In this document: positions 28,721-47,082 of the stretch, piece by piece | Position numbering within the stretch: position 1 is the stretch's first letter | How the letters are laid out: each line of letters begins with the position of its first letter | Assembly: GCA_000002445.1 (NCBI GenBank) | Contig: CP000069.1 | Coordinates: forward strand, 1,056,001 to 1,120,000 | Direction of reading: 5' to 3' | Origin: Trypanosoma brucei | Lineage: Eukaryota | DNA length: 64,000 bases | Program-made: the position numbers and the translations under genes | The notes under the pieces: generated by a model | Databases searched by the model: none | Seen by the model: the letters and a program-made list of their open reading frames with translations, nothing else | Told to the model about the DNA's origin: nothing

Positions 28721-30406
28721 TCAGCACGACACAATCAAGGATTCCTTGGGGTAGAGGATGAAACAGGGAGATATTCGCGGATGAAGGCTAGTAACCAGAT
28801 TTCCGTAGTACTTTCCATTTACATTAATGCCGAGTGAACCTTCATCTACGCTATATGTGAAGGTCAAAACGTCACCGATACAACACACAGGTAATTCCTT
28901 GAAGGATTGACCAATTCTACCAATGCCTCCATCAACAACACCGAGTTTTGTGGGTTTCCAGTAGAACCCTCCTGGAACAAGGGAAGTGTCTGTCCTTTCA
29001 ACCACACCGACAAATGATTTGTCAAACCCCTTTCCGAGCTGGACACGCCACGTCACACGCCCACGCTCCTCAGGAAACAAGCGCGCAATTTCCTCCACAG
29101 TTTGTTCAGTACGGATACCAATTTGCTTTAAACTATCGGCTTCATTGGGCTGAGCAGTTACATGAACGACACTGTTCAACACCTTCAAGTCAATGCCTTC
29201 ACGCTCCGTTAATGTGAAGCGTCTACCTGTTCGCAGTGGTATCATGCTACCGTCTTGTGCGCAAACATTCAACACTTTTCCCGATTGTGGTCGGGAATCG
29301 TCATCCACTTGTGAATGTGGAATACATCTCCTGAGGTTTGTGTCCCTTCTAATGCCGTTTTTGGAATGTTCTTCCGACCTCAAATCTAGAAATAATTTAA
29401 ATTGAGGTAAACCAAAATCACCAACCTCAAAAAACTTAAAACCAAGCCCTTCTACATCCGGAGTTTCTTCACTGAGGTGGTACGAAAGATATGATCGATT
29501 CTCTAATATCTTATAATCTGAACAACCGCGTTTCATGTGTTGCAGTAGAACAACCGACTCATTAATAGCATTTGCTTTTGCCAACACCCTTCCCCTACAT
29601 TGATTTAAGGAGGCATGGCCGGTATCGCACAACGACCCGAGGGCTTCAAGAAGCTCCTTTTCACGTTGTGACACCATCATCTGTAGTTGGCTAAAGCGTT
29701 CTTTTATTGATTTCTTAACCTCCTCTAAGGAGTCAAAGTATCTTGTCGTCACGACATTTAACTGATTCACCTTCTTTTCTAATCTCTCCTTCTTGTCTGT
29801 CATGAGGGTAATCTCACCGGGAGCTCTATTCCTAAATATGGCAGCCGCCTCTGGTACGCTAATGCTTTCATGACCGTTATGAGGGCCGGTGAGCAAACAA
29901 TATGCGCAGCAAAGACTTTCACAAACCTTGCAGTAAAACTCTAATCGATACTCTTCATGGCCTTGAACGCCGCAGCATCTATAAAGCTTTCGTGTTTCTT
30001 GAGCGTCATCAAGTGGGAAAAATGTATGGTGGCGCTTCGTGGCGTTTTTGTGCACAGCAGTGTTGCAATCCATGCAATAAGCGCCTGCACATTCATCACA
30101 TTGTATCGCAGCAGCAACCTCTTGGCACCATTGGCAAACCGGTTGCTGGGCGAGGCCCTCAACTCTCGCCTTAACGTAAGCCCTAAGTTCATTGTCCACT
30201 AATTTCGGTAATGTTTCATTGTTAATGTGCTCCTGTTTGGTGCTACAAAGAAGGCAAATGAAATCTCTACCTTCCAAGCATTCCAACCTCCCTAGCACAC
30301 AAGATGCGCAAAAGCTGTGTTTGCAGCTGAGCGTGACGGGATCGTGAAGAATTCCAAAACATATCCCGCAGGTAATAGTGACTGGTATCCCCGGAACCTC
30401 CGTCAT
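28721..30406 (-). CDS. RING / B-box1 / B-box2 / coiled-coil / SPRY protein (TRIM-like E3 ligase architecture)
   Basis: 561-aa ORF. C3HC4 RING: CGICFGILHDPVTLSCKHSFCASCV...CLLC. B-box1-like: CQWCQEVAAAIQCDECAGAYCMDCNTAVHKNATKRHH. B-box2: CCGVQGHEEYRLEFYCKVCESLCCAYCLLTGPHNGH. Heptad coiled coil (KKERLEKKVNQLN...LQMMVSQREKELLEAL). C-terminal SPRY-like region (VTWRVQLGKGFDKSFVGVV...LPVCCIGDVLTFTYSVDEGSLGINVNGKYYG). Confidence 0.75.
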   Translation of the reverse strand: MTEVPGIPVTITCGICFGILHDPVTLSCKHSFCASCVLGRLECLEGRDFICLLCSTKQEHINNETLPKLVDNELRAYVKARVEGLAQQPVCQWCQEVAAAIQCDECAGAYCMDCNTAVHKNATKRHHTFFPLDDAQETRKLYRCCGVQGHEEYRLEFYCKVCESLCCAYCLLTGPHNGHESISVPEAAAIFRNRAPGEITLMTDKKERLEKKVNQLNVVTTRYFDSLEEVKKSIKERFSQLQMMVSQREKELLEALGSLCDTGHASLNQCRGRVLAKANAINESVVLLQHMKRGCSDYKILENRSYLSYHLSEETPDVEGLGFKFFEVGDFGLPQFKLFLDLRSEEHSKNGIRRDTNLRRCIPHSQVDDDSRPQSGKVLNVCAQDGSMIPLRTGRRFTLTEREGIDLKVLNSVVHVTAQPNEADSLKQIGIRTEQTVEEIARLFPEERGRVTWRVQLGKGFDKSFVGVVERTDTSLVPGGFYWKPTKLGVVDGGIGRIGQSFKELPVCCIGDVLTFTYSVDEGSLGINVNGKYYGNLVTSLHPRISPCFILYPKESLIVSC

Positions 30407-31818: not shown

Positions 31819-32370
31819 TTACGGGGCACAAGTGCTAAGTATCCATGCCACGCCTTCCTCCAGTCCTGCTCCCGTTTTGGCGCTACAGCCTTGGATGTGC
31901 CACTTGCGGTCTCGGAAGTCATGCAAATGAAGGCATTCTGCGATCGCCTGAGCATCTTTTGCGGTTGCAAGATCTTGTTTATTCGCAAACACCAAAACCG
32001 GAGCACCTTCAATGCCCTTTAGAACATCCACAAATGCAGCGTGAGATTCTTCGAGTCGGCGGTGGTCAGAAGAATCCACCACGTACATAATGCAGTCCGT
32101 GTTGCTGTAGTAATCCTGCCAATAGTCTCGCAGCGCCCGCTGGCCACCGAGATCACATAACTTAGCCCGTTTATTCCCACGTGTGAGTGTTTTGATATTA
32201 AACCCTTGCGTTGGTCCCTCAGGTGCGGCGTGGGAAACTTTTCCCTCCACAGGCACCTCGTCTTCTCCCAATGCATTCAGTACGGTAGTCTTTCCAGCGT
32301 TGTCAAGTCCCACTATCAGTACACGCGGCTCATTATCACGTTTCGCACGGCTACGGATCCCCTTAAGCAT
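31819..32370 (-). CDS. ADP-ribosylation-factor-like GTPase (ARL2/ARL3 subfamily)
   Basis: G1 LIVGLDNAGKTTVLNAL, PTQGFNIKTL, G3 DLGGQRALRDYWQDYY, G4 FANKQDL, and HIQGCSAKTGAGLEEGVAWIL closely parallel ARL2/ARL3. The ORF as given starts at 32517, but its first 49 codons (CLCACVCVCVCV) are translation of the upstream (CA)n repeat. Start assigned to Met at 32368-32370 (MLKGIRSRAK). Confidence 0.85.
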   Translation of the reverse strand: MLKGIRSRAKRDNEPRVLIVGLDNAGKTTVLNALGEDEVPVEGKVSHAAPEGPTQGFNIKTLTRGNKRAKLCDLGGQRALRDYWQDYYSNTDCIMYVVDSSDHRRLEESHAAFVDVLKGIEGAPVLVFANKQDLATAKDAQAIAECLHLHDFRDRKWHIQGCSAKTGAGLEEGVAWILSTCAP

Positions 32371-32448
32371 TATCAAATAGATTACCCTTATTCCTCTTTC
32401 TTTTTTCTTCTTTTTTATTGTTACCTTGGTGCTCCTCACAGACACAAG

Positions 32449-32476
32449 CACACACACACACACACACACACACGCA
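32449..32476. repeat. (CA)n microsatellite immediately 5' of ARL gene
   Basis: Direct read: cacacacacacacacacacacacgcacaa. Confidence 0.9.
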
Positions 32477-33106
32477 CAAAGACAGAGAGGCACAAACAAA
32501 CAGTAAAACAGATACACAATTAAGCGGGACTACCTTTGAGAATACGATGCCCCCTGTAATGTTCTTTCTCCTTGTTCTCATCATCACATCTGTGAGTCTT
32601 CTTCACGCTGTGCAGAAGAAAGTGTTCGATCTTCACACAGTCAAAAATGCTTCACAAATATTAGTAACTGTAACGTTCGAATAGGAGATCAAACAATAAA
32701 TACAAAAAAATTAAAAAATAAAAGAATGAAACACCAACACACGAAATACGGTAGAGAAGAAAAAAAACATAAAATCAAATTTAAAAAAGACGATAAAACA
32801 CAAAAGTATTTTCCGGAAACCAGAGTAAACAAGTCGACAATTTTTTGCGACCAGTTAAGAGAAAAAGGTCATTATAATGTGATGTGCAGCTTCACTTTCC
32901 AAAAAAAAAAAGATCAGAATGCTGCAAGCATTTCTCCTTCGGATAGAAGCGCTTGTGTTCTGTAATGACACGCAAATGTCGGATGTACTGAATAATAAAG
33001 GAGCCAGTGATGCAAAAATATCCTCACTCCATTTAATATCCTCTTTGTCCTGGCGGGCAAAATCAGGAGGAAATGGAAGTACAATTGTTATAAAGCATTG
33101 AGTTAC

Positions 33107-34476: not shown

Positions 34477-37400
34477 CTACAACCCCTCCTCGAATACGCC
34501 GCGCTCTTGCTGGATCCACCGAGAAAGAAACACACCATCACACTGCCTTCTGGATGTGTCACCCCGCTGGGGACGAGAAGCGCTTCCCTCCACAGACAAA
34601 TTCGTGCCGTCACTGTTGTTATCATCAGCATCACCGCCCTCCCCACCTGAAGCCGCAGACCCGCACCTTTCAACGCAACCAACGAACATGTGGTAAAGTG
34701 CCCATAGCGGCATGTCACATTGCTCTATAACCCGCGGTAGAAGTTCCTTGCTTATTTTCTTCGCCTCCTCCACGGTGTTATCAGGTTGTGTTACGGGAAC
34801 CGTAACATCGAAGTAACACCCCATCAGCACTCCCCTCACGGTAATAAACACAAGTTGCCGCTCTAGCATGCACTGGGGTGCAAACACATCATCTACCACA
34901 AAAGAGAACTCCACGCCTTTCGCCAAGAGTGCCGTGATCAACGGTATCTCACGCAACTCCTCTTCAAGACATTTGGAAAAGAGATCTTTCGATAGAAGAA
35001 CGTTGGCGTATTTTTTTGACGGGAAAATAGAATCTTCCTCAATGCAAACATCATAAAAGACCCCTGTTGAGATACACACCACGCCCCTCTGCGATATCTC
35101 CACTCTCGTTGGATACGGGCGTGGTGCGAACAAATAACTGTAGCCATCCAACCGCACACTCAAGTGCCCGTTAGCTAAGGAAGCCACATTTACAAGGACT
35201 TGATGTCTTTCATCTTTTCCCTGCAAGCAAACAGCACCAATGCGCACTGTATTGAAATTACCCGTAGCACCAAAACCTTGAGTTGATAAAGTGACTAAGA
35301 CGTCCCCTTCGATTCCATCCAACGTGAAGGTACCCCGTCCTGTCAGCCGACGCTCAACATACTCCAACTGGAGCTCAAGAGAGAAGTACATAGGAATACC
35401 TTCCATCCAGCTCACATCAACACCTTTTTGCAATGACCCAACAAGTTTGTCGCTCAGTGTAACAAGACTTGCAAGCGGCATTTCAGACACTTCCATGGAT
35501 AGCGACTCAAAATTCCGGTTTAGTGCAACACGCTGAAGGCGACAAACAAAACTACCGCAGGCTGGCACCACCAATGTACCACTCAAGTTAACAGTCGGTT
35601 GTAGGAAAGACTGTGGCTGGTGTCCTAGCACGGCGTTAAAGTTAATGCTTAAATCACTGATAAAGGCATCAGGAAAGACATCCCCGATATCATATCGCGC
35701 ACTGGGTGACATTCCCGAGATCAAAATCTGTTCATCAGGGTAACCAATGCTGCCGGCCAACGTCAATTCAATAATGGGTTCCGTCCCCTCACCACTATCA
35801 AATTGCGTGTCATACGATACAAAGTTTATTCTCTTATGCTCCGTTACTGGCAATGCCATTTCCGATGGATCAACATTCGTAGCTTTCATACAAAGCTCAA
35901 TCTCAAACACCATATATCCAATCACCAAACCTCGTAAGCCAAAGTTGATATCATTCCCTGGTAACGTGAACCGAACGGTTGCATTAGGGCTATCCATCGT
36001 TGGCGCAGAAAGAATTATTTCCGTTTTCGTATTTTCCAAAAACTGCAGGGTGTACAGCAGTAGCAGTTTGTCGAAAATGGGACATGGGCAAGTTGCGAGG
36101 GAGGTGCGGCGGATAAAATTCACGCCAGGAAACAGCTGCATTTGGTGGTTGAGGGGTAATGGAGAGCACCCAGGAAACGTCAGTCGGTACCTCGGCGTGA
36201 ACACTAACGTATTGAGTGTAAACGCAATGAGTACCGGTTGACCGGAGAACCCGACATGATAGAGTAGAGGTAGTCTAGGGAAGTGTTCAATGGCCAGCCA
36301 GTTGATTTCCTTGATTTCCACTAATACCATCACCGACGCAACGTGCTCATTTAATGCATTGATTTTTTTTGTAACCAGCAAGTCCGTGTTTCTCTGTACG
36401 TGCAGAGACATGCTCCACAAAATGATTACGAAAGCACGAGCATTATGGAATCCGTAAAAGCTCTCTGCTAGCGTACCACCCTCCACAATCTTTGGATAAA
36501 ACCACGAAACGCTTTCCTTTTCGATGGAAAAATCACGAGACACCAACATTGGATTAGCAATTAACATGTTCAGCTTATCCACGCCACAGGAGTACCTTTC
36601 TGCTACCGCATGCAGTAAATACATGAAATCGTTTCCGGAGCGCCTTTCCGTGGATATGTACTTGTTGTCCGGAAGGTTCTTTGCCTTGGACGCATTCCTA
36701 AACACTTTACTCTGAAACGCAATATATTCTGATTTAAACCGCATGAAGTATTGGGCGATACGCCCATGGTGTTCAATGTCCTCAGGCTCACGGAGGCCAC
36801 TAACAACGCTCCTTGCTTGATCGTAGCCTGCACGGCACTGTTGACAAAATTCGTCTTCATGGCTATAGGCAGCATTTTTCCACGTCTCGTACATGCTGTC
36901 ACTGAGTGGACACCGTAAAAGGGATGATAATTTTGTCCTTGCGCCTTTCTCGAGTGACCAAAACACTTCAAAAAGCTCAAGAAATGACGCTTTGGGGATC
37001 CCCTTGAATCTCACTCGCCAGTATGATGTTGGAGTGTCTACAAAGAAGGACAATGAGTTTCCTTTTGGCGAGAAGGGTCTCTCCGCCACGGGGACGTAAT
37101 CTACTCCATTGTTACTTGTCTCAACAACTATAACCAACACCTCTTCTTCCATCTCTATAGCTTTAACGATCTCCTCCTGTTGAGCAGTTGAAGCCTTACT
37201 GATTTTCTTCCCGGTTTTCTTGGGAGCTCGTGGAGAAGAAGCGGAAGTCACCTCCAATGCTGCTAATTTTTCTAATTCCGCCTCTGCGTCGGGATTGGTT
37301 TCAACACGGCCGTTGACAAACACCTGCTTGAAATGTGGAGATGTATCGCTGTCAAAAAACCATGAAACAGAGGCTTCCGTTTCCATCCCACGCGAACGCA

Positions 37401-40400
37401 ATACAACAGTTTTTGCATTGTTATCAGACAAAAATATCGGCAACCGCACTTCATCGAATTTTTCTACTGCCATTTTCACATCGGGCGCCTTGGAGAAGTC
37501 GTAGCGAACGAATGCTTTACCGATAAAAGAATACCATTCAGCTTGGACATCGCACTCCTTTTTCCAACTTATAAAAGGCCCTGATTTAGAACTGAAACAC
37601 GTTTCCTCCAGATTATCTTCTGCAAGAACGGGTCGAAGCCGCCAGTGCGACGACATTCCTCGTGGTTTCCACCCTTGGCGCACCTTCCGAGAATCTGCAC
37701 TGTCATCGTTCCTCAGCGTAGCAACCGCTTGCCACGAGGAACCGTCAACAGAACGCTTTTCAACTACAAATGAAGAAAGTGGCGGCAACTCCGCCTCAAC
37801 AGCAACTACCTCGGTACAATTTCCCCTCAGGTTCAGGTCCTTTCCACTTGAGCCGGCTGCAATATCTCCCTTTGAGTCCACATGGTGGTAAAGGGTTGGT
37901 TTTGGGGTGTCGAATCGTATGCTACATATTCTTAGCGGCGAAGTTCCCACACGCTGTGTGACCCGAAGTCGCCAATACTGACAACAATCGCTTACATCCC
38001 ATGCTGCCTGCGCTAAGTTACCCCGAAGATTAAACGTTACCCCAACACCTCGCCACTCTACCGCATCGGAGCTACACTCAACCACGAACGCAGTGTAGGG
38101 ACTTTTGTTTTCATGGCATATCATGCAGACACCAACAACTTGCGTGGCGTCTTGCTTGCTGTCAAGAACTATTGACGACCCAACTTCTGCCGGCACAACC
38201 ACGTTTGCCACAGTATCACCGGAGGACCCCACTTCACACAGTACGAAGGGATCCAATAAACAGCTTAGATACAAAGAGTCCTCCAAATAAACGGACGGAC
38301 CCGTATACTCGAAGAAAGTTAAGTTTTCGTATATCGTGCTTTGTTCCCGTGCCTCCAGTTCTACGCTCCAGAATCGACGGGGTCCCCTGGGATGCCATGC
38401 AGCTCTGAAATAGTGGTCATGACTGTGCCACGTGCCGCATACCTCCCACTGTTCACCATTTGAACTGCAGGATATGATCCACATCACAGGTCGCGGTTTT
38501 CCAACACAAATACATGAAAACTCCATGACGTCAGACGGTTCCCTTTCCCCATAGTCTACTATGAGGTGCTGTCTGACAACCTTAGTAGCCCCGCTCTCGT
38601 CGACGGGGTTTTCGAACGCAACTGTGACCTTATCATCAACGAATAGCGAAGACATGGGTCCATTCAATGTACCGCTGCAAGCAACTCTTACCGGCAAAAC
38701 TCTGGAAGAAACCGAAGAAACTGTAAGAAGCAACATATGGAAATACAATACGGGATATTCGTGCCGACTGTCCACCTCCTCACATTCCAAACTGAAACGC
38801 CAGAACCTCCGTGAATGGTGTCCAACCCTCTCACTCCCCCAAATTGTCCGACACCGACTAGTTATTTGATGATGTCTTCCCACCGTTTGCCATAGAACAC
38901 CATCATCGCTGCACTCCACCACCCAGTTATCGTCGCATGGTTCTGAGCTCTGCATAGTCACCCCAACCAACAGCTTTTGGTAATTTTTAAAGTCAAGATT
39001 GATGACACAGTCGTGCCGCCTTATTCCCCATCTCAAATACCACGTAACGGGGAAAAATACTTCTGATTGAGAGACAGGCTTAGCCTCCGTTAGGTTAGTT
39101 ATCCCTTGTGTCTCCACGTCAAGCGCTGCCACAAGGTCCTCACAAAATGTATAAAAACGGGTTGGATATTTCGGGAACGAAGCGGCGCAGAGAATCTTTT
39201 TACCCTCAAAGGCAGGATGACGGAAATAGGTTGAGTTGCTCAACCTCATTGGTCCCTCCACAAGTTCCGATGTTACGATGTTCCAGCGAAGAACATGAGG
39301 GGACTTGATAACAAAGACCTCCTCCGGTTGGCTCCATATCTGGACAATATTCTCCACTTCCTCCATCTTCCATGGCAAATCTTTAAACATCGTCGCAGCG
39401 CTTTGAACACCACCACCCCCAGATGCGAATGCCCCCTTCTCAATGTCCCATAAAATAACATGACTTCCGCTAATGAACGCGACGATGTTGGGGGTCCTCA
39501 CGTTGGGATAAAATGCCGCGTTAACCCCTCTCAGGAATGGTGCAGGCAGTGTATCAAATGCAGGATGGGCTGCTATCGGTACCGCACGATGGCCAACCAC
39601 AACACCATTGGAACAATCTAATTCAACAAAGTGAGGGCCGCAGAACAACAGGCAGAAATCCCCATTTGGAAGAAGAGGAAGTATGCAATGCCGCTCGAAC
39701 CAACCTGCACTTGTCGACGTTGTGAAAACGGCACCAGGTGTCAAACAGTTTAATATATCCCTTGCTGGCGAAAGGAGACAGGGTGCATCGATTGTCACCA
39801 ACGTAGACTCCAATGGCGGTAGTGCAACGGTGGGATCGACAGGTATAGTTCCAACAACGTGCATTACCTCGTACAGAAGAAGACGCACAACGCCCGTGCC
39901 AACAGGCAGTTTGCTGACGAAGCGCACACGCCAAACGCACCCTACATGCGATACGCCCCAACAAACAGGTGTGATTGATGATGTAATAAAGAAATGTGCG
40001 TGTCTTACATACGCGATCCCGTCATCACTACTCTCGAGAAGGACTTCAACGGGCGCGACCTGAAGAACTCGGGGTTCTATGCACGACAGATTCAGTACAA
40101 TCACGAGCGCGCCGAAGGCGCAGGGATTCATAGGATCGTACCGAACCTCGATAGTCTGGGAAGGTTCTCCCAACAAACTCTCCTCAGTTTGTACAAACAC
40201 CGCACTTTCACACAGGAGCGGTGCGACCGTGGTAAAGTTATGGGGTAACACAACTGACAGAAGGTTTTCTGCGCACTCCGCACTCTGAGTAAGAGTACTT
40301 GTAACTGTACACTCCCTGTGAACGCTTCGATGAGCATCACATAAAATAACATCGTGAACACTGCACTCTGTTTCCAGCACCGTTCTACATATACTGCCAA

Positions 40401-43400
40401 GTGCTGTCATCGTATTTTGTCGAAACGCCATCGGCAGTCTCGACAAAACGGAAGAAGGAATGGTCTCAAACCGAACCTCGCACTTCGCGTCAGGGGAGTA
40501 AATGAAGTTTTTTACGGTTGCAACACGTCCACAGCGACCAATAAGCATCACCACCATCTCCTTCTCATGTGTAATGGAGCTCCCCTTTCCGTCACCGTTA
40601 TTGTTGTTTGCACTGATCTTTGCCGTTGTCCCCACCAAACTCTCTTCCCTTGTAGACCTAATACTCCCCATGCTCGCCCAATTATTGTTATTATTATCCT
40701 CTTGCTCTTGGCTCTCTTCCGTTTCACCACTTTTCTCCCACATCAGCATCGTCGCCATTGGGCCGTGAGGAAACACTTTCGACAGTGACGGTCCGAATAT
40801 GGTTTCACCTGCGTTACCCTTCCCATGATCCCCAACTCGCATCGGTCCTCCAACAAGGCACCTTTCCGTGATGTTGAACACAACGTATTCAAGCTGACAG
40901 AAGAAAAACACGAGCGGCGTGTTTGCCACCGGAACAGCGGCATTAATTCCTGAAAGAAACTTTTCTGGTAGCGATCGAAACTGTTTGTGACACCTCAATT
41001 TGAATAAACCACCACTACACCTCTGGCGGTAGCTATCCCACTCCAACCACTCCTCACCACAAAAAAAATATGCAGTTCGTGGGTTGACTGGGGAATTGAA
41101 GGCACAATCAAATCCACCCATAAAAGGAAAACTGTTCAGCCCCAACGTCTTGGACATGGGTTGTAAGGGAATATTCATGGAACGATTCTCCACGTTGAAA
41201 CAACACACGTGGTCTTTGATAAAAAACAGAGCATATTCGGTCAAATTTCCATCCTTTGTGCAAAGACAAATGGAATGCCATGTTTCACCGATGAGTGATG
41301 GCGGAACAACCTCAGGTTCCTGTGCTAACGCCCGTGCAGTAATCCCTTTTTCCATTTGTGCTGACAAGGGAAGCACCAACCGACCTCCGTTGGGTTTAGA
41401 ACGTCCCCCAGACTTCCTTTGCGATTCCGCCTCTTTCCTCATAAAGGACCACATACCCAACAAATCCTCATGAAATGGATCTTGTGTTATGATAGGGGCA
41501 TCTTTCTTGCGGTTCGCCGGCCTGGACACACGCTTAGTCAAACGTTTTTTTTCCACACGATCTACGGGAAGAGACGAAGACAAGGTGAGCATAGTTGTAG
41601 ACTCTGAGAGTAACCCCATAACTTGATTCCACTCAATATCACCGCTGCGTTCCCGGACATGTTCACGAGTCGCCGTCCCACTGCCCATCTGTAGACGTGC
41701 TGGATAGGGTGGAAGATTCACCAAATCATGTAGAAGCCGAGCAACCCATTCCACTGCGTTAGGACCAAGTACCTCGCTCAGGTAAAAGAGAACAAGGGAG
41801 CGAGTACTTTCAGTGAGACAAAGCTGTCGCAGCGTTCGCAGAAGTTTCCATTGACTTTGCGAAATATGGCACTCACCCGTGCGGTATGCAAAGAAAAGTA
41901 ACGCAGGTGGAAACCGAATAGCTTCCGAGAAAACTCTCGAGCCTTCAAGCCCCCCACCGTCGGTTGACAGGCAAATATCGCTCATGTAGTTGAAAGCTTC
42001 ATGGAGCACTTGACAGTTCTCCACTATGCCAATAACTTTCTTCGGAAGGTACCGCGAGGCGTGCAGTGAAATCTTCTCACCGTTGCTCAAAGCAAAGACA
42101 TTGGAATCAACAAAAATACACGCGTCACTGGATACATAGAGGTTAAAAACACTGCGGGGCACGTAAAAGAATCCACGATTCCCCACATTCTCCCCGAAGT
42201 TGCTTTGGCAGATAACATAGATGGTGTTGTGTATGTTTGTCTGCCCAACGACCTTAAGGGTCGTGTGAAATGAACGACCCATGGGCGATTCATTTGGTAT
42301 CACACCGTTCGGCAGTGCGAGCCACTCTACGCAAAAGCGCATGACGATAAGTATTGATCGCCGCATTTTACGAAACGCCCACAAAACAGCCCGTGTGTTG
42401 TCAAACAAGTTCGAGTGAGGGCCATCGACAATAAACAACCCTTGACGACGTCGCGAAAATGCAGCTCGAACCAAAGTCTCCATGTCAGCTACCTTACACC
42501 ACTTTTCCCATAGATAATAAAAGTCTCGTGTGGGTCTTTCTTTTCGACGGTTAAACGGTGCCGATTCCACAGGAAGGCAACCGACCATCAGCGCCACTTC
42601 ACACGCATGCCGCAACTCCATTCCCAAAGAAGTGGGAGGTATCTTAGCTAAGAAACGACCAACCGCATAGATCATATATGGATCAATAGCCACACCCTCG
42701 ATATCCGTCATCGCGCTCGCAACAGTAAGTGCACAACAGGTGTCTTCCCCAGCCGCATCGTCAATGTAGGCAGAAGCGAAGTTGATAATAGAAAAATCGT
42801 CATTTGATAACTGGGTCAACGGAATATCCAGCGAGGATAAAAGACTTATGCCGGTCATACTGTTCGTAACCTGCACACCGCCATAGCTATACAACCCAAA
42901 TCGTACAAGATGCTGCACGCACAGTTGAGAGCAAGGTTTGAACCTTTGGTGTTTTATCATTACTCTTGACAAGTGAAGAAGCGCCGACGGTCGCAGATAA
43001 CAGTCCACCGTTACGTCATCATGGAGTTGAGATAAGAATCTATACGCACCATTGGACAAACATAGAGTGTGATTTCCACATACGCTACACGCATCCGCAT
43101 CGTCATGGTTCTTCCTATGCATCTCCTCAGCGTCACTGCTGTCAGCTGACGAGCTGTCGAAACACCGTGTGGCTCCCGATGAGGCAGACGATAACGGGTT
43201 TACCACTTTCGTACTGCCCTCAGCGTTCAATTTTTCTGAATTTACGCGCTTTCTCTCCAGTCTAGCGACATTGTCTACCAGACAGCGCTGCAACGTTGTA
43301 TTCCGAGGACAAGTGCCCTTAACACCGTGGAGGTGCTCGCTCAACACACTCTCAATCATGATCACGATATCATCGCTCAGTTTATTCTTGCATTCATAAG

Positions 43401-44145
43401 AGCATATGAATAACACACCATTGTTCGTATCACAGCATACGAGCAAGGTCCGAAACAAAACTCCCAGCGCAACCTCGCAGTAACTCTCTCCACGATTCAT
43501 GAGTGCCTTCGAAAGCGCCAGGAGAATCTGTCCTTCAACCCTTTGGTCAGGGGAATAGATGACAGCCCTGTTGCAAACCAAACAACGGGAAGCCACTAAC
43601 TTCATGTTCGCATTGGAAAAGCACTGCCGTTGTATAGACAGGTACTTGGGTGTGTCCTTGTCCAATAGGATTTCCGTCAAGCAATTGTTTTTTAATGCGA
43701 GGGCGAAGAGCTTACGTCCACTGCTCACACTCAATGGAACGTCACGTAGGTCAATCTTTTGCAATGTTTCGTGAAAACCAAGGTACTGCAACATTTGAGC
43801 GATATCTTCCGCAGTCAACTTACATCCTCTCATGGACAAACTCGCAACGGAAAGGCGCTGTAGTGTTGTGAGAATAGGGATGATACCGCGTTCACCCAAG
43901 TAGCCGTTATCAAAGTTGAAAACTGTCGACCCGGCTCGTAATTGCTTTACAAACGCGTTGTTTACATTTATTCCAATGCGCGCACACTCCGAACGGTAAA
44001 ACCTCTCAGCTTCACTGACTGAATGGATCCGATTCGAAGTGGTTGAGCTTGAAGGCGAAGGTGGAGCTAAGGGATCCACTGTCTCCTCACTGGGGGACGC
44101 GGCCAAACACTTAGTGGCCCCTTTCAAGTTTTCTTCCCCTTGCAT
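34477..44145 (-). CDS. Giant (3222-aa) multidomain protein: N-terminal RNI-like LRR, long central region with six copies of a conserved repeat module, Gly/Asp-rich C-terminus
   Basis: Single uninterrupted 9.67-kb ORF co-oriented with its neighbours. Leu-rich RNI-like segment at aa ~90-170 (LTTLQRLSVASLSMRGCKLTAEDIAQMLQYLGFHETLQKIDLRDVPL). Repeat module at aa ~1369-2385. No catalytic motif recognised. Confidence 0.8.
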   Translation of the reverse strand: MQGEENLKGATKCLAASPSEETVDPLAPPSPSSSTTSNRIHSVSEAERFYRSECARIGINVNNAFVKQLRAGSTVFNFDNGYLGERGIIPILTTLQRLSVASLSMRGCKLTAEDIAQMLQYLGFHETLQKIDLRDVPLSVSSGRKLFALALKNNCLTEILLDKDTPKYLSIQRQCFSNANMKLVASRCLVCNRAVIYSPDQRVEGQILLALSKALMNRGESYCEVALGVLFRTLLVCCDTNNGVLFICSYECKNKLSDDIVIMIESVLSEHLHGVKGTCPRNTTLQRCLVDNVARLERKRVNSEKLNAEGSTKVVNPLSSASSGATRCFDSSSADSSDAEEMHRKNHDDADACSVCGNHTLCLSNGAYRFLSQLHDDVTVDCYLRPSALLHLSRVMIKHQRFKPCSQLCVQHLVRFGLYSYGGVQVTNSMTGISLLSSLDIPLTQLSNDDFSIINFASAYIDDAAGEDTCCALTVASAMTDIEGVAIDPYMIYAVGRFLAKIPPTSLGMELRHACEVALMVGCLPVESAPFNRRKERPTRDFYYLWEKWCKVADMETLVRAAFSRRRQGLFIVDGPHSNLFDNTRAVLWAFRKMRRSILIVMRFCVEWLALPNGVIPNESPMGRSFHTTLKVVGQTNIHNTIYVICQSNFGENVGNRGFFYVPRSVFNLYVSSDACIFVDSNVFALSNGEKISLHASRYLPKKVIGIVENCQVLHEAFNYMSDICLSTDGGGLEGSRVFSEAIRFPPALLFFAYRTGECHISQSQWKLLRTLRQLCLTESTRSLVLFYLSEVLGPNAVEWVARLLHDLVNLPPYPARLQMGSGTATREHVRERSGDIEWNQVMGLLSESTTMLTLSSSLPVDRVEKKRLTKRVSRPANRKKDAPIITQDPFHEDLLGMWSFMRKEAESQRKSGGRSKPNGGRLVLPLSAQMEKGITARALAQEPEVVPPSLIGETWHSICLCTKDGNLTEYALFFIKDHVCCFNVENRSMNIPLQPMSKTLGLNSFPFMGGFDCAFNSPVNPRTAYFFCGEEWLEWDSYRQRCSGGLFKLRCHKQFRSLPEKFLSGINAAVPVANTPLVFFFCQLEYVVFNITERCLVGGPMRVGDHGKGNAGETIFGPSLSKVFPHGPMATMLMWEKSGETEESQEQEDNNNNNWASMGSIRSTREESLVGTTAKISANNNNGDGKGSSITHEKEMVVMLIGRCGRVATVKNFIYSPDAKCEVRFETIPSSVLSRLPMAFRQNTMTALGSICRTVLETECSVHDVILCDAHRSVHRECTVTSTLTQSAECAENLLSVVLPHNFTTVAPLLCESAVFVQTEESLLGEPSQTIEVRYDPMNPCAFGALVIVLNLSCIEPRVLQVAPVEVLLESSDDGIAYVRHAHFFITSSITPVCWGVSHVGCVWRVRFVSKLPVGTGVVRLLLYEVMHVVGTIPVDPTVALPPLESTLVTIDAPCLLSPARDILNCLTPGAVFTTSTSAGWFERHCILPLLPNGDFCLLFCGPHFVELDCSNGVVVGHRAVPIAAHPAFDTLPAPFLRGVNAAFYPNVRTPNIVAFISGSHVILWDIEKGAFASGGGGVQSAATMFKDLPWKMEEVENIVQIWSQPEEVFVIKSPHVLRWNIVTSELVEGPMRLSNSTYFRHPAFEGKKILCAASFPKYPTRFYTFCEDLVAALDVETQGITNLTEAKPVSQSEVFFPVTWYLRWGIRRHDCVINLDFKNYQKLLVGVTMQSSEPCDDNWVVECSDDGVLWQTVGRHHQITSRCRTIWGSERVGHHSRRFWRFSLECEEVDSRHEYPVLYFHMLLLTVSSVSSRVLPVRVACSGTLNGPMSSLFVDDKVTVAFENPVDESGATKVVRQHLIVDYGEREPSDVMEFSCICVGKPRPVMWIISCSSNGEQWEVCGTWHSHDHYFRAAWHPRGPRRFWSVELEAREQSTIYENLTFFEYTGPSVYLEDSLYLSCLLDPFVLCEVGSSGDTVANVVVPAEVGSSIVLDSKQDATQVVGVCMICHENKSPYTAFVVECSSDAVEWRGVGVTFNLRGNLAQAAWDVSDCCQYWRLRVTQRVGTSPLRICSIRFDTPKPTLYHHVDSKGDIAAGSSGKDLNLRGNCTEVVAVEAELPPLSSFVVEKRSVDGSSWQAVATLRNDDSADSRKVRQGWKPRGMSSHWRLRPVLAEDNLEETCFSSKSGPFISWKKECDVQAEWYSFIGKAFVRYDFSKAPDVKMAVEKFDEVRLPIFLSDNNAKTVVLRSRGMETEASVSWFFDSDTSPHFKQVFVNGRVETNPDAEAELEKLAALEVTSASSPRAPKKTGKKISKASTAQQEEIVKAIEMEEEVLVIVVETSNNGVDYVPVAERPFSPKGNSLSFFVDTPTSYWRVRFKGIPKASFLELFEVFWSLEKGARTKLSSLLRCPLSDSMYETWKNAAYSHEDEFCQQCRAGYDQARSVVSGLREPEDIEHHGRIAQYFMRFKSEYIAFQSKVFRNASKAKNLPDNKYISTERRSGNDFMYLLHAVAERYSCGVDKLNMLIANPMLVSRDFSIEKESVSWFYPKIVEGGTLAESFYGFHNARAFVIILWSMSLHVQRNTDLLVTKKINALNEHVASVMVLVEIKEINWLAIEHFPRLPLLYHVGFSGQPVLIAFTLNTLVFTPRYRLTFPGCSPLPLNHQMQLFPGVNFIRRTSLATCPCPIFDKLLLLYTLQFLENTKTEIILSAPTMDSPNATVRFTLPGNDINFGLRGLVIGYMVFEIELCMKATNVDPSEMALPVTEHKRINFVSYDTQFDSGEGTEPIIELTLAGSIGYPDEQILISGMSPSARYDIGDVFPDAFISDLSINFNAVLGHQPQSFLQPTVNLSGTLVVPACGSFVCRLQRVALNRNFESLSMEVSEMPLASLVTLSDKLVGSLQKGVDVSWMEGIPMYFSLELQLEYVERRLTGRGTFTLDGIEGDVLVTLSTQGFGATGNFNTVRIGAVCLQGKDERHQVLVNVASLANGHLSVRLDGYSYLFAPRPYPTRVEISQRGVVCISTGVFYDVCIEEDSIFPSKKYANVLLSKDLFSKCLEEELREIPLITALLAKGVEFSFVVDDVFAPQCMLERQLVFITVRGVLMGCYFDVTVPVTQPDNTVEEAKKISKELLPRVIEQCDMPLWALYHMFVGCVERCGSAASGGEGGDADDNNSDGTNLSVEGSASRPQRGDTSRRQCDGVFLSRWIQQERGVFEEGL
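36993..40041 (-). repeat. Six intragenic protein-level repeats of a module marked by [LV]VE-x-S-x-[DN]G-x-x-W ... ~32 aa ... [FYHV]W[RS][VLF][RSE][LFV]
   Basis: Six copies by manual residue counting, at aa 1371, 1743, 1891, 2021, 2124 and 2341. They are: ESSDDGIAYV...VWRVRFVS, VVECSDDGVLWQTVG...FWRFSLEC, IISCSSNGEQWEVCG...FWSVELEA, VVECSSDAVEWRGVG...YWRLRVTQ, VVEKRSVDGSSWQAVA...HWRLRPV and VVETSNNGVDYVPVA...YWRVRFKG. Spacing is 110-370 aa. Confidence 0.6.
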
Positions 44146-45786: not shown

Positions 45787-47082
45787 TCATGGGGCTTGTA
45801 AAGGTGGCACTTTATCCCGTGGAAGCCTGATAGTCGGCGAAACCAAAATGAAAGGTTTGGGAAGCGTACCCGCTACCGGGGAGAGAAACGAAAAGAATGT
45901 TTCCCCTACCTCCAGAAGAACAATAAACCCGGCAACATTTATATCGTTGACTGCTTCTAGGGAATCTGTCCAAGAAACAGCAGCTAAACTAAGAGGTTCA
46001 ACGTCCTTCCAGGAAAGAGGTTCCAACTTTAAAGCGTGGATGAAGTGAACGTCCTTTACGTAACAAACAGCTCTGTAAGACAATAAAGGGGTACGTTTCG
46101 TCCCTTGAAAGTAACTTACAATTTGCTCTGCACGCCAGCTGTCGCGAACGTTACCCTTGCGCTTGAACACTCCCGTTTGCTTTGGGTATTTGAGAAAAAT
46201 GATTTTCTCGTCGATCACTGCATTACGCAAGGTTTCTGTAAGTTTGTTACCTGAACCACAGACTACAACATGCGTGATACTGAACACGGAAAGTAGCTGA
46301 AAAAGGAGGTCAAGCCCCATGTCAGTTACCCACCCCATAGTATTCACAATAACGCCACCGGCAGCAAATTTTGGGGTGGCCAAACTAAAAGATATAATTC
46401 CCCGTGCCAACGATGCACATAGATCCAAATATCGTCCTCGAGTGGAAGCATTTACGGTTTTATCACCAAAGAAGGCCGTTAATGGCATCACCGTATTAAA
46501 CCCCTCATCAATCGGTAAATAGTTATCAACAAACGCTGTTGCAACACTTCCTGGGCAGGTAATACCTTGTTGCCCAACATCCACGTCCACAAGGGCAACC
46601 CCATGAACCTGCGATGCGACTGCCATATTCGCAAGTGAGCGGCACAAACTACTCTTCCCGGTATTCACGTCACCAACTACGAGGACACGTGGGCCCCATG
46701 GCCCCTCCTTCAAAGAGTTTGATGACGTGCCTCCAGGATTGGTGTCGTTTAAAGACGGTACACCGCGTTTGCTGGCTTCATGGCGCGCGAAATCAAGCAC
46801 AGCATGGATGTCATACACATCAGTACGAATATATGTTACCACGCTGGTGAAATCCCCTCCCACGTGAAGTCGACACGCCACAGGAGATACCACTGGTATG
46901 CTACACATGGAAAAGTCGTAGCGGGTATTTTTTTTTAGAGGTGCACCAAAAATGGTCGCTGCTCCATCCGTAAGTACAACATACCCCGAACTACGAAAGC
47001 GGATTTTTAGTTCTTTGCGCTCCAAATTGAATTCTTCAGTGCGACAATTAGAAGACATGCCGCTGCTATTCACCACGGCCAA
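45787..47082 (-). CDS. CLP1: Clp1-family polynucleotide 5'-hydroxyl kinase (mRNA 3'-end cleavage factor Clp1 homologue)
   Basis: 431-aa ORF. The P-loop and flanking context (GPRVLVVGDVNTGKSSLCRSLANMAVASQVHGVALVDVDVGQQGITCPGSV) aligns with the Clp1 Walker A region (PRVMVVGPTDVGKSTVCR...YVELDVGQGS) recalled from memory. Confidence 0.8.
   Translation of the reverse strand: MAVVNSSGMSSNCRTEEFNLERKELKIRFRSSGYVVLTDGAATIFGAPLKKNTRYDFSMCSIPVVSPVACRLHVGGDFTSVVTYIRTDVYDIHAVLDFARHEASKRGVPSLNDTNPGGTSSNSLKEGPWGPRVLVVGDVNTGKSSLCRSLANMAVASQVHGVALVDVDVGQQGITCPGSVATAFVDNYLPIDEGFNTVMPLTAFFGDKTVNASTRGRYLDLCASLARGIISFSLATPKFAAGGVIVNTMGWVTDMGLDLLFQLLSVFSITHVVVCGSGNKLTETLRNAVIDEKIIFLKYPKQTGVFKRKGNVRDSWRAEQIVSYFQGTKRTPLLSYRAVCYVKDVHFIHALKLEPLSWKDVEPLSLAAVSWTDSLEAVNDINVAGFIVLLEVGETFFSFLSPVAGTLPKPFILVSPTIRLPRDKVPPLQAP

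What the first reader, a model, noticed from the sequence alone, without database searches (positions are those of the whole stretch)
34477..44145. Giant 3222-aa ORF: LRR head, six-fold repeat-module body, no recognisable enzymatic domain
A 9.7-kb uninterrupted ORF is far beyond chance in this 50%-GC context, so it is almost certainly a real gene. The protein has an RNI-like LRR segment near the N-terminus (aa ~90-170), about 1.2 kb of sequence with no motif I recognise, then six copies of a conserved module over aa 1369-2385. It ends with a Gly/Asp-rich acidic tail. Architectures of LRR plus repeated beta-sandwich modules in multi-thousand-residue proteins are typical of scaffold, adhesion-like or cytoskeletal linker proteins. 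There is no signal peptide or TM, so it is probably cytoplasmic. It deserves structure prediction.
Basis: partly seen in the sequence, partly recalled or inferred. Interest (0 to 1): 0.65.

Follow-up and report, generated by a model that had tools for sequence, protein, structure and literature searches.

The report
Giant trypanosome flagellar-rod scaffold protein PFC8
The 9.7-kb ORF is a real trypanosome gene, by gene order the already named but unstudied paraflagellar-rod protein PFC8, and profile searches show it is a 359-kDa chain of binding modules that includes a papain-type protease domain which has lost its catalytic histidine.

Summary
The ORF is real: window 34477-44145, minus strand, 3,222 codons, chance of no stop about 1e-73. 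Gene order (SPL, RING/B-box, Arl3C, 312-aa ORF, giant, POMP31, CLP1, PTH2) identifies it as Tb927.6.3670, PFC8. PFC8 was called a paraflagellar-rod component from proteomics in 2009 and has not been characterised since. Colinear orthologues of 2,900-4,100 aa occur across Kinetoplastea and Diplonemea, and a published transcript of more than 10 kb covers the CDS, so it is not a fusion artefact. Pfam finds nothing in the window protein, but family profiles resolve most of it:
- RNI-type LRR
- two duplicated Cys4 zinc modules
- a papain-like (C1) domain
- a helical linker
- two hemopexin-like regions
- six F5/8 type C (discoidin/CBM32) modules
- a unique, conserved 750-aa C-terminal region

Its "no recognisable enzymatic domain" is wrong: the C1-like domain is the best-conserved part. 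In kinetoplastids it keeps the Cys but has Thr at the catalytic His column, so it is probably a pseudo-peptidase. The most likely function is a non-catalytic, multivalent flagellar scaffold. Both AlphaFold runs failed (pLDDT 31). The gene is known; the architecture is mostly new.

The parts
34477..44145 (-). Complete CDS, 3,222 codons plus stop, ~359 kDa; by synteny the orthologue of Tb927.6.3670 (PFC8)
   Evidence: synteny; transcript
43591..44013 (-). RNI-type leucine-rich repeat region, aa ~45-185 (about four 28-aa strand/helix units at aa ~75-175)
   Evidence: Family profile vs PDB: FAP101 E=4.5e-15, ribonuclease inhibitor ~1e-11, DRC5/TCTE1. Single sequence vs PDB: FAP101 E=5.7e-4. Alternating E/H pattern in the only part of the AF2 model with pLDDT 50-62.
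43276..43590 (-). Zinc module 1, aa 186-290: invariant C188, C191, C248, C252 (CxxC...CSxxC) around a helical insert
   Evidence: Invariant across 18 orthologues. Homologous to module 2: hhalign 94%, E=1e-7. Type not established.
42850..43110 (-). Zinc module 2, aa 346-432: invariant C353, C356, C405, C409
42016..42849 (-). Papain-like (Peptidase C1-related) domain, aa 433-710. C471 sits at the papain C25 column, T628 at H159, A465 at Q19, S648 at N175. Probable pseudo-peptidase. Best-conserved segment of the protein.
   Evidence: E=4.6e-45; weak cathepsin K/S hits
41296..42015 (-). Poorly conserved linker, aa 711-950, part helical and part basic low-complexity; helices seen only in the low-confidence model
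   Evidence: (low confidence)
40360..41295 (-). Hemopexin-like region 1, aa 951-1262. Four blade-like motifs by eye. An Asn/Glu-rich insert at aa 1136-1197 lies between blades 3 and 4.
   Evidence: Profile vs PDB: CP4 3oyo E=1.3e-9, plus other hemopexin-fold proteins. Relatives P0032 and P0100 hit Pfam Hemopexin. hhalign HPX1 vs HPX2 99.3%.
39859..40194 (-). F5/8 type C (discoidin/CBM32-like) module 1, aa 1318-1429
39046..39723 (-). Hemopexin-like region 2, aa 1475-1700
38713..39039 (-). F5/8 type C module 2, aa 1703-1811
38299..38607 (-). F5/8 type C module 3, aa 1847-1949
37897..38217 (-). F5/8 type C module 4, aa 1977-2083
37588..37860 (-). F5/8 type C module 5, aa 2096-2186
36946..37248 (-). 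F5/8 type C module 6 core, aa 2300-2400, preceded by a low-complexity insert at aa ~2291-2335. Its N-terminal half may start near aa 2195 (not shown).
   Evidence: weakest, E=0.06; module 1 vs T. congolense module 6, E=0.013; M6b vs M4, 98%
34696..36939 (-). Unique conserved C-terminal region, aa 2403-3150. No Pfam hit, no PDB hit, no internal repeat. aa 2501-2660 is the most conserved part. It ends in the invariant EQC...LW motif.
34480..34695 (-). Variable Gly/Asp/Ser-rich linker followed by the near-C-terminal FLSxW motif, aa 3151-3222

Best explanation
The ORF encodes the African-trypanosome orthologue of PFC8 (Tb927.6.3670), a ~359-kDa, non-membrane protein of the detergent-resistant flagellar skeleton whose flagellar level depends on the paraflagellar rod (PFR).

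It is an ancient euglenozoan protein, found in Kinetoplastea and Diplonemea, with a fixed architecture:
- RNI-type LRR
- two duplicated Cys4 zinc modules
- a papain-fold (C1-like) domain
- a linker
- hemopexin-like region 1, then discoidin module 1
- hemopexin-like region 2, then discoidin modules 2-6
- a unique C-terminal region

Shown here: the gene is real, the domains are as listed, the architecture is conserved, and the catalytic His column is lost in kinetoplastids.

Inferred: it works as a non-catalytic, multivalent scaffold or adaptor. The LRR, the dead-protease cleft, the hemopexin regions and the six discoidin modules would each offer a binding surface. The protein would thereby tether partner proteins, or possibly glycan or lipid ligands, to the PFR lattice or the PFR-axoneme interface. 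This parallels the catalytically dead calpain-like proteins that trypanosomes use as cytoskeletal components.
For: Gene reality and single product.
- ORF statistics.
- Colinear full-length orthologues in T. vivax, Leishmania, Phytomonas, Angomonas, Papus and Diplonema, with six modules in every kinetoplastid.
- A transcript of more than 10 kb contains the complete Tb927.6.3670 CDS: bioRxiv 10.1101/2023.01.27.525864.

Identity.
- Neighbours match the published IDs 3630 SPL, 3650 Arl3C, 3680 POMP31 and 3690 CLP1, with exactly two ORFs between Arl3C and POMP31.
- Tandem HSP70 genes lie downstream.
- Synteny is conserved in T. conorhini.

Flagellar skeleton.
- PFC8 fell by log2 -1.51 in flagella after PFR2 RNAi: PMC2645819.
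- It is listed in the DRC1-APEX2 pellet proximity proteome: PMC8141408 Table S1B.

Domains.
- LRR.
- C1-like.
- Hemopexin. Kima et al. independently noted LRR, hemopexin repeats and peptidase relatedness in LmjF30.2390: PMC2950143.
- Discoidin.
- Duplications.

Non-catalytic reading.
- Thr occupies the papain H159 column in nearly all kinetoplastid orthologues (Val, Ile or Met in the other three). Q19 and N175 are not conserved. Window H627 is Leu or Tyr in other species.
- The domain is nevertheless the most conserved segment.
- Precedent: ClpGM6 lacks the catalytic triad and is a flagellar cytoskeletal protein: PMC4121973.

No signal peptide or TM segment by hydropathy.
Against: - PFR assignment rests on two peptides in one iTRAQ experiment. 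PFC8 was not among the seven proteins validated by tagging, and I found no localisation entry in the TrypTag supplements held here.
- The link between the window and Tb927.6.3670 is by gene order and CDS size, not by sequence identity to a named record.
- No binding partner or ligand is known.
- Discoidin and hemopexin domains are usually extracellular, so their ligands inside a flagellum are unexplained.
- The invariant Cys at the nucleophile column could mean residual or non-canonical chemistry.
- Both structure predictions failed (pLDDT 31), so every fold assignment rests on sequence profiles.
- A Leishmania antiserum study placed a fragment of the orthologue at the amastigote surface and in host cytosol.
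- A table in PMC4632311 annotates LmjF.30.2390 as 'signal peptide/RNI-like domain'. I did not test the Leishmania N-terminus.
Confidence: 0.6

Rival explanations
1. PFC8 is an active cysteine peptidase. C471 acts as the nucleophile, with a substitute general base such as the neighbouring H627 in T. brucei, and the enzyme processes flagellar or PFR proteins.
For: C471 and the surrounding motif (TCA.TVAS) are conserved in all trypanosomatid orthologues. The domain is the most conserved part of the protein. The window has a His one residue before the catalytic column.
Against: The His column is Thr in nearly all kinetoplastids. H627 is Leu in T. vivax and T. conorhini and Tyr, Cys, Asp or Asn elsewhere. 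Q19 and N175 equivalents are not conserved. The window domain does not reach Pfam Peptidase_C1.
Confidence: 0.1
2. The discoidin/CBM32-like and hemopexin-like modules are true lectin or lipid-binding domains. PFC8 would then link the PFR to glycosylated proteins or to the inner leaflet of the flagellar membrane, rather than acting only as a protein-protein scaffold.
For: The best PDB relatives of the modules are carbohydrate-binding CBM32 domains and the phospholipid-binding C domains of factor VIII and lactadherin. The best relatives of the blade regions are plant hemopexin-fold lectins and small-molecule binders.
Against: No ligand-binding residues could be assessed because the structure models failed. 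Related jelly-roll domains inside cells commonly mediate protein-protein contacts (general knowledge, not tested here). The protein stays in detergent-extracted skeletons.
Confidence: 0.2
3. The protein is a released or surface-exposed parasite factor, as proposed for the Leishmania orthologue LmjF30.2390 from antiserum labelling of infected macrophages.
For: PMC2950143 reports labelling of the amastigote surface and of host cytosol and nucleus with antiserum to clone IVI-18. A table in PMC4632311 annotates LmjF.30.2390 as 'signal peptide/RNI-like domain'.
Against: The window protein has no signal peptide or TM segment by hydropathy. The family is conserved in free-living Papus and Diplonema. 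Flagellar-skeleton proteomics place it in T. brucei flagella. According to that paper, the reactive bands in infected cells were much smaller than a protein of over 350 kDa.
Confidence: 0.05
4. The giant ORF is an assembly or annotation artefact that fuses several genes.
For: None found. The only initial concern was that the first two database orthologues were partial proteins.
Against: More than 15 full-length orthologues have the same domain order. A single transcript of more than 10 kb is published. The partial proteins are cut by contig ends.
Confidence: 0.01

Closest known systems
[quoted passage not shown] 2009, PMC2645819
   Same: By gene order and CDS size the window gene is this gene or its orthologue in a close relative. 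It has no individually published function.
   Different: The 2009 paper assigned no Pfam domain to PFC8, only a short MEME motif. Apart from the LRR and hemopexin repeats noted for the Leishmania orthologue in 2010, the domain map given here is not in the papers I could search.
Trypanosome calpain-like pseudo-peptidases of the cytoskeleton, such as ClpGM6; Hayes et al. 2014, PMC4121973
   Same: A large flagellum-associated cytoskeletal protein that carries a clan CA cysteine-peptidase-fold domain without a complete catalytic site and is used structurally.
   Different: PFC8's domain is related to family C1 (papain), not C2 (calpain). It keeps the Cys. It is combined with LRR, hemopexin and discoidin modules rather than GM6 repeats.
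Papain family (Peptidase_C1, PF00112) and an unannotated ~290-aa metagenomic subgroup (P0033-P0152)
   Same: Clear sequence homology over ~220-280 residues (E=4.6e-45). It includes the C25-region motif and the GxxGxxGFFY segment after the His.
   Different: The window domain fails Pfam's own model. H159, Q19 and N175 equivalents are missing in kinetoplastids. Diplonemid orthologues have Ser at the nucleophile column.
F5/8 type C (discoidin) / CBM32 domains: factor VIII C1/C2, lactadherin C2, neuropilin b1, bacterial CBM32
   Same: All 32 PDB hits of the module profile belong to this fold family. 7 of 44 modules hit PF00754 and 4 of 44 hit PF22633.
   Different: These modules lie in a cytoplasmic or flagellar protein, in six diverged tandem copies (9-24% identity to module 1 in the cross-species alignment). 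None of the window's own modules reaches Pfam significance.
Hemopexin-fold proteins: plant CP4 and LS-24, MMP hemopexin domains
   Same: Profile similarity at E=1.3e-9 to CP4. Four blade-like DAA...FF..G..Y..W/D motifs per region.
   Different: Intracellular context. Two copies, each followed by a discoidin module. The window sequence gets no Pfam Hemopexin hit. A protease-like domain followed by hemopexin recalls MMP architecture, but with a different protease fold, and that resemblance is only an analogy.
Axonemal RNI-type LRR proteins: Chlamydomonas FAP101 (central apparatus, 7n6g), DRC5/TCTE1
   Same: Best PDB matches of the N-terminal LRR.
   Different: The similarity is confined to ~85-125 residues of LRR, and no other region matches. 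It is not evidence of orthology or of a central-apparatus location.

Membership tests
PFC8 / PFR component (T. brucei Tb927.6.3670) | Same locus: flanked by Arl3C (3650) and a small ORF on one side, and by POMP31 (3680) and CLP1 (3690) on the other | tested here: met
   Pfam on neighbours plus published IDs. Exactly two ORFs lie between Arl and POMP31, and the giant one is adjacent to POMP31. HSP70 tandem downstream.
PFC8 / PFR component (T. brucei Tb927.6.3670) | CDS long enough for the reported transcript of more than 10 kb | tested here: met
   CDS of 9,669 nt. The paper reports a transcript of more than 10,000 nt with the complete CDS.
PFC8 / PFR component (T. brucei Tb927.6.3670) | Physical location in the PFR (tagging or immuno-EM) | not testable with these tools
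   Only proteomic dependency on PFR2 and DRC1-APEX2 proximity. Not among the tagged PFCs. Absent from the held TrypTag supplements.
Peptidase C1 (papain family) | Sequence homology to family members | tested here: met
   The link is transitive. An HMM of eight small relatives hits the window at E=4.6e-45. Of those eight, P0035 and P0038 pass the PF00112 gathering score while P0034 and P0036 do not. Weak cathepsin K/S hits.
Peptidase C1 (papain family) | Direct match of the window protein to Pfam PF00112 | tested here: not met
   No hit at E<=10, whether whole protein or segment.
Peptidase C1 (papain family) | Catalytic Cys (papain C25) | tested here: met
   C471 aligns with C25. Conserved in trypanosomatids, Ser in diplonemids and Papus.
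Peptidase C1 (papain family) | Catalytic His (papain H159) | tested here: not met
   T628 in the window. Thr in nearly all kinetoplastid orthologues. His is retained only in diplonemid sequences.
Peptidase C1 (papain family) | Oxyanion Gln19 and Asn175 | tested here: not met
   A465 and S648 in the window. Neither column is conserved among the giants. An Asn is often one position later.
Peptidase C1 (papain family) | Papain fold (two-lobe alpha + beta) | tested here: inconclusive
   AlphaFold model unusable (pLDDT 31).
F5/8 type C (discoidin) / CBM32 | Profile similarity to family members | tested here: met
   The 44-module profile hits CBM32 5zu6 at E=1.6e-6, plus factor VIII C, lactadherin and neuropilin; all 32 hits are in this family. 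Pfam PF00754 7/44, PF22633 4/44. Orthologue scan.
F5/8 type C (discoidin) / CBM32 | Window modules individually reach Pfam thresholds | tested here: not met
   No hit for the window protein or its segments (part A).
F5/8 type C (discoidin) / CBM32 | Ligand (glycan or phospholipid) binding | not testable with these tools
   Needs biochemistry or a confident model.
Hemopexin repeat / hemopexin fold | Profile similarity to hemopexin-fold proteins | tested here: met
   A three-sequence profile gives CP4 at E=0.0013, and all three hits are hemopexin fold. The family profile gives CP4 at 1.3e-9. Relatives P0032 and P0100 hit PF00045, as does one orthologue.
Hemopexin repeat / hemopexin fold | Four-bladed beta-propeller | tested here: inconclusive
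   Four blade-like motifs per region by eye (sequence). The model failed.
RNI-type leucine-rich repeat | 28-29-residue strand/helix repeats with profile similarity to ribonuclease inhibitor | tested here: met
   Strand/helix alternation with ~28-residue period at aa 75-175 in the only moderately confident part of the model. One orthologue hits LRR_6.
TRASH / FCS-type (treble-clef) zinc finger | CxxC...CxxxC cysteine pairs | tested here: met
   Both quartets are invariant in 18 orthologues.
TRASH / FCS-type (treble-clef) zinc finger | Spacer of about 19-22 residues, and significant profile similarity | tested here: not met
   Spacers are 56 and 48 residues. Only weak eL24 hits (E~1) and one zf-FLZ hit (E=0.23). 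Not filed as a member.

The most novel reading that the evidence does not exclude
PFC8 descends from an ancient papain-fold enzyme recruited into the euglenozoan flagellum, and its active site then diverged by lineage. Diplonemids would carry a Ser-His pair and so might be a working serine-nucleophile peptidase on a papain fold. Kinetoplastids keep Cys but lost His. The conserved Cys and cleft would then serve as a redox- or ligand-sensing, or substrate-trapping, module that couples PFR mechanics or signalling to the array of hemopexin and discoidin binders.
Probability: 0.15. Interest if true: 0.6.

Novelty: already known. Interest (0 to 1): 0.35.

Why it matters
The paraflagellar rod is essential for trypanosome motility and viability in the host (general knowledge), yet most of its roughly 30 proteomically defined components have no assigned role. 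PFC8 is one of the largest. This analysis turns it from a "hypothetical protein with no Pfam domain" into a defined chain of modules, each of which can be tested on its own:
- LRR
- two zinc modules
- a dead papain-like domain
- two hemopexin-like regions
- six discoidin modules
- a unique C-terminal region

The family is conserved in Kinetoplastea and Diplonemea, two euglenozoan lineages known to build a PFR. Euglenids were not examined.

Hemopexin and discoidin domains inside a flagellum are unusual, and they raise a concrete question about what they bind there. The Cys/Thr versus Ser/His split at the catalytic columns is a tidy case of pseudo-enzyme evolution. None of this changes the fact that the gene itself is already annotated and named.

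Tried and rejected
- **Pfam on the whole protein and on ten segments at E<=10:** nothing. Single-sequence methods cannot see these domains.
- **Self-BLAST:** no internal repeats at E<1. The repeats needed HMM and hhalign methods.
- **Word-indexed homologue search:**
  - The full-length query timed out, and one call was out of frame.
  - The aa 1300-2450 query returned nothing, although two database proteins overlap it.
  - The other two searches gave only partial T. conorhini and T. congolense proteins.
  - The exact-sequence look-up of the window protein found no record.
- **Structure prediction:** both AlphaFold2 jobs (aa 61-1260 and aa 1955-3154, each with a two-sequence alignment) gave mean pLDDT 31. 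I discarded the models apart from the LRR secondary-structure pattern and did not spend fold searches on them. The deeper orthologue set could not be submitted to the predictor.
- **Papain-like domain, two-sequence profile vs PDB:** only a spurious insulin hit. The link came from the exhaustive search instead.
- **C-terminal 750 aa:** no PDB, Pfam or internal-repeat signal, and no relation to the discoidin or hemopexin profiles. aa 2195-2290 could not be shown to be the N-terminal half of module 6.
- **Zinc-module type:** no significant PDB or Pfam match.
- **Small C1-like relatives:** PHROGs and NCBIfam gave only weak 'peptidase' hits.
- **Literature:** no paper combines 'paraflagellar rod' and 'hemopexin'. 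Only two trypanosome papers mention PFC8. The TrypTag supplements held here do not list the gene.
- **Considered and rejected:** central-apparatus orthology with FAP101, because the similarity is LRR-only, and the fusion-artefact reading.
Full report
**1. The observation.**

The window holds an uninterrupted ORF of 3,222 codons plus stop at 34477-44145 on the minus strand. Given the window's composition, the chance of 3,222 codons without a stop is about 8e-74. All 22 other ORFs of 200 aa or more, except three short ones, are on the same strand, as expected for a trypanosomatid polycistronic unit. GC is about 46-49%. The protein is about 359 kDa. A Kyte-Doolittle scan shows no hydrophobic N-terminus and no convincing transmembrane segment. 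The finding's coordinates are right.

**2. Which gene it is.**

Pfam on the neighbours gives this order on the minus strand:
- PLP-dependent decarboxylase/SPL-like, 25858-27474
- RING/B-box protein
- Arf/Arl GTPase, 31819-32517
- a 312-aa ORF
- the giant ORF
- a 294-aa ORF
- CLP1, 45787-47082
- PTH2
- further on, DnaJ and two identical tandem HSP70 genes

Published T. brucei IDs match this order:
- Tb927.6.3630 is SPL.
- Tb927.6.3650 is Arl3C.
- Tb927.6.3680 is POMP31.
- Tb927.6.3690 is CLP1.

Exactly two ORFs lie between Arl3C and POMP31, and the giant one is next to POMP31. It therefore corresponds to Tb927.6.3670. That ID is PFC8, 'paraflagellar rod component', with orthologue LmjF30.2390 in Leishmania.

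A nanopore direct-RNA study lists Tb927.6.3670 among four transcripts of more than 10,000 nt that contain a complete CDS.

The same synteny (PTH2, CLP1, small ORF, giant) holds in T. conorhini. Identity levels of 44-50% to T. conorhini, T. congolense and T. vivax fit a T. brucei-group sequence. I could not compare the window directly with the TREU927 record.

**3. What is known about PFC8.**

- Portman et al. (PMC2645819) found it only by iTRAQ, with two peptides. It was reduced by log2 -1.51 in flagella after PFR2 RNAi.
- It was not among the seven candidates validated by tagging, and it received no Pfam domain, only a short MEME motif.
- It also appears in Table S1B of the APEX2 study (PMC8141408). 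That table lists proteins of the DRC1-APEX2 pellet proximity proteome that were already seen in earlier flagellar proteomes.
- Kima et al. (PMC2950143) noted by PSI-BLAST that LmjF30.2390 has an LRR, hemopexin repeats and 'relatedness to serine peptidases'. They reported antiserum labelling of the amastigote surface and of host cytosol.
- Only two trypanosome papers in the searchable library mention PFC8. None links the PFR with hemopexin.

**4. Homologues.**

The word-indexed search returned only two partial proteins, from T. conorhini (aa 1 to ~1500) and T. congolense (aa 1874-2489).

The exhaustive HMMER search used a two-sequence profile of aa 180-1300 and gave 325 hits. They fall into three groups:
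- full-length giants of 2,900-4,100 aa
- about 100 representatives of a ~290-aa family that matches only profile positions ~283-505
- hemopexin-repeat proteins that match positions ~830-940

Named giants come from T. vivax, Leishmania mexicana, Phytomonas, Angomonas deanei, the prokinetoplastid Papus ankaliazontas and Diplonema papillatum. The protein is therefore ancient within Kinetoplastea plus Diplonemea.

**5. Domain map.**

Pfam finds nothing in the window protein, whether whole or in ten segments at E<=10. The domains appear only with family profiles.

(a) LRR, aa ~45-185.
- The 15-sequence family profile hits FAP101 (7n6g) at 4.5e-15, ribonuclease inhibitors at ~1e-11, and DRC5/TCTE1.
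- This is the only part of the AlphaFold model with pLDDT 50-62. It shows strand/helix units with a ~28-residue period.

(b) Two zinc modules.
- C188/C191/C248/C252 and C353/C356/C405/C409 are invariant in 18 orthologues.
- The two regions are homologous to each other (hhalign 94%, E=1e-7).
- Their type is not established. The only hints are weak eL24 and zf-FLZ matches.

(c) Papain-like domain, aa 433-710.
- Of the five ~290-aa relatives scanned, P0035 and P0038 pass Pfam Peptidase_C1 at 39 and 37 bits against a cutoff of 20.7, and P0033 just passes at 22 bits. P0034 and P0036 get no hit.
- An HMM built from eight of the relatives hits the window at E=4.6e-45.
- The family profile also collects cathepsin K and S at E~1 over the His-Asn segment.

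(d) Hemopexin-like regions, aa 951-1262 and 1475-1700.
- A three-sequence profile gives only hemopexin-fold PDB hits (CP4 at E=0.0013, LS-24, MMP-12 hemopexin domain).
- The family profile gives CP4 at 1.3e-9 plus hemopexin-fold lectins.
- Relatives hit Pfam Hemopexin.
- The two regions are duplicates (hhalign 99.3%, E=1.5e-20).

(e) Six F5/8 type C modules.
- They lie at aa 1318-1429, 1703-1811, 1847-1949, 1977-2083, 2096-2186 and 2300-2400.
- Leave-one-out HMMs rank each module above 3,000 decoys.
- Off-register BLAST against T. congolense gives E=6e-6.
- hhalign between modules gives 84-99% probability.
- A 44-module profile hits only discoidin/CBM32 structures: CBM32 5zu6 at 1.6e-6, factor VIII C domains at ~1e-4, lactadherin and neuropilin.
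- 7 of 44 modules hit PF00754 and 4 of 44 hit PF22633.
- All kinetoplastid orthologues except two (five each) have six modules in the same order.

(f) C-terminal region, aa 2403-3150.
- It is conserved, with aa 2501-2660 at 63% identity to T. vivax.
- It has no Pfam hit, no PDB hit and no internal repeat.

(g) Tail.
- A variable Gly/Asp/Ser-rich linker is followed by a conserved FLSxW motif.

**6. The catalytic site.**

| Papain position | Small C1 family | Kinetoplastid giants | Diplonemid giants |
|---|---|---|---|
| Q19 | Q | not conserved (window A465) | Q in 3 of 5 |
| C25 | C | Cys (window C471); Ser in Papus and one unnamed orthologue | Ser (Thr in one) |
| H159 | H | Thr in nearly all (window T628) | His in 4 of 6 sequences |
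| N175 | N in about half the members, elsewhere Asn is two positions later | not conserved (window S648) | not conserved |

The window's H627 lies one residue before the catalytic column. It is Leu in T. vivax and T. conorhini, and Tyr, Cys, Asp or Asn elsewhere.

No lineage has a canonical Cys-His dyad. Even so, this domain is the most conserved segment of the whole protein: 64% identity to T. vivax, 40% to Leishmania and 24-28% to Papus and Diplonema. The simplest reading is a pseudo-peptidase retained for binding. Non-canonical chemistry is not excluded.

**7. Mechanism.**

Shown:
- The gene is real.
- It is a single product.
- It is a conserved multi-domain protein.
- By published proteomics it belongs to the detergent-resistant flagellar skeleton, and its level depends on PFR2.

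Inferred: it acts as a multivalent scaffold or adaptor, in which the LRR, the dead-protease cleft, the hemopexin regions and the discoidin modules provide separate binding sites.

The nearest precedent in the same organism is the set of catalytically dead calpain-like proteins used as flagellar or cytoskeletal components, such as ClpGM6 (PMC4121973).

Rival readings are scored in their own section: an active peptidase, a lectin or lipid tether, a released factor as claimed for Leishmania, and an artefact. The last is refuted.

**8. Limits.**

- Both AlphaFold runs had two-sequence alignments and failed (pLDDT 31). All fold assignments are therefore sequence-based, and I ran no fold searches.
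- PFR location has not been shown by imaging in any source I could read.
- The identification as Tb927.6.3670 rests on gene order and size.

**9. Verdict.**

The gene is already known and named. What is new here is most of the domain map, the broken and lineage-specific catalytic site, and the phylogenetic range. Interest is moderate.

Noticed in passing
window 56893-58866 and 59452-61425 (-), plus 55468-56436 (-): Two tandem 657-aa HSP70 ORFs with identical Pfam scores, hence probably identical copies. A DnaJ-domain ORF lies immediately downstream of them in transcription order.
   Followed up: partly
window 28721-30406 (-): A 561-aa ORF with a RING finger, B-box zinc fingers and a PML-like coiled coil. 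That is a TRIM-like architecture in a trypanosome.
   Followed up: no
window 34480-34560 (-), aa ~3196-3222; orthologues P0003-P0021: Many kinetoplastid orthologues share a near-C-terminal motif [GST]F[LMV]SxW after a variable low-complexity linker. It is absent in Leishmania and Angomonas. Diplonemid orthologues instead end in ...DW. This may be a targeting or interaction peptide.
   Followed up: partly
window 40555-40740 (-), aa 1136-1197: An Asn/Glu/Ser-rich low-complexity insert sits inside hemopexin-like region 1, between the third and fourth blade motifs. It is largely absent from T. conorhini.
   Followed up: no
window 35747-36241 (+): A 164-aa antisense ORF lies inside the giant CDS. 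It is most likely a chance ORF in a long stop-free region.
   Followed up: no
proteins P0033-P0152: About 100 cluster representatives form an unannotated ~290-aa papain-like family from metagenomes and sequencing-run assemblies. A few are fused to LysM (P0033) or SLT (P0043) domains, and PHROG 'peptidase' hits are weak. They are the closest non-euglenozoan relatives of the PFC8 peptidase-like domain and hint at a bacterial or phage origin.
   Followed up: partly
window 31819-32517, 10024-11925, 4992-9440, 159-3749 (all -): Other genes in the window: an Arl3C-like GTPase, a tubulin-tyrosine-ligase family protein, a 1,482-aa LRR protein and a P4-type phospholipid flippase. Several are cilium-related, but in a polycistronic unit this need not mean anything.
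   Followed up: no
window aa 951-1812 (HPX1, M1, HPX2, M2): The order hemopexin-discoidin-hemopexin-discoidin, together with the strong HPX1-HPX2 similarity (hhalign 99.3%), suggests an ancient tandem duplication of a hemopexin-plus-discoidin unit that predates the kinetoplastid-diplonemid split.
   Followed up: partly
The word-indexed homologue search returned nothing for aa 1300-2450, although two database proteins overlap that query. The exhaustive search found 325 relatives. Negative results from the indexed tool should not be read as absence.
   Followed up: yes
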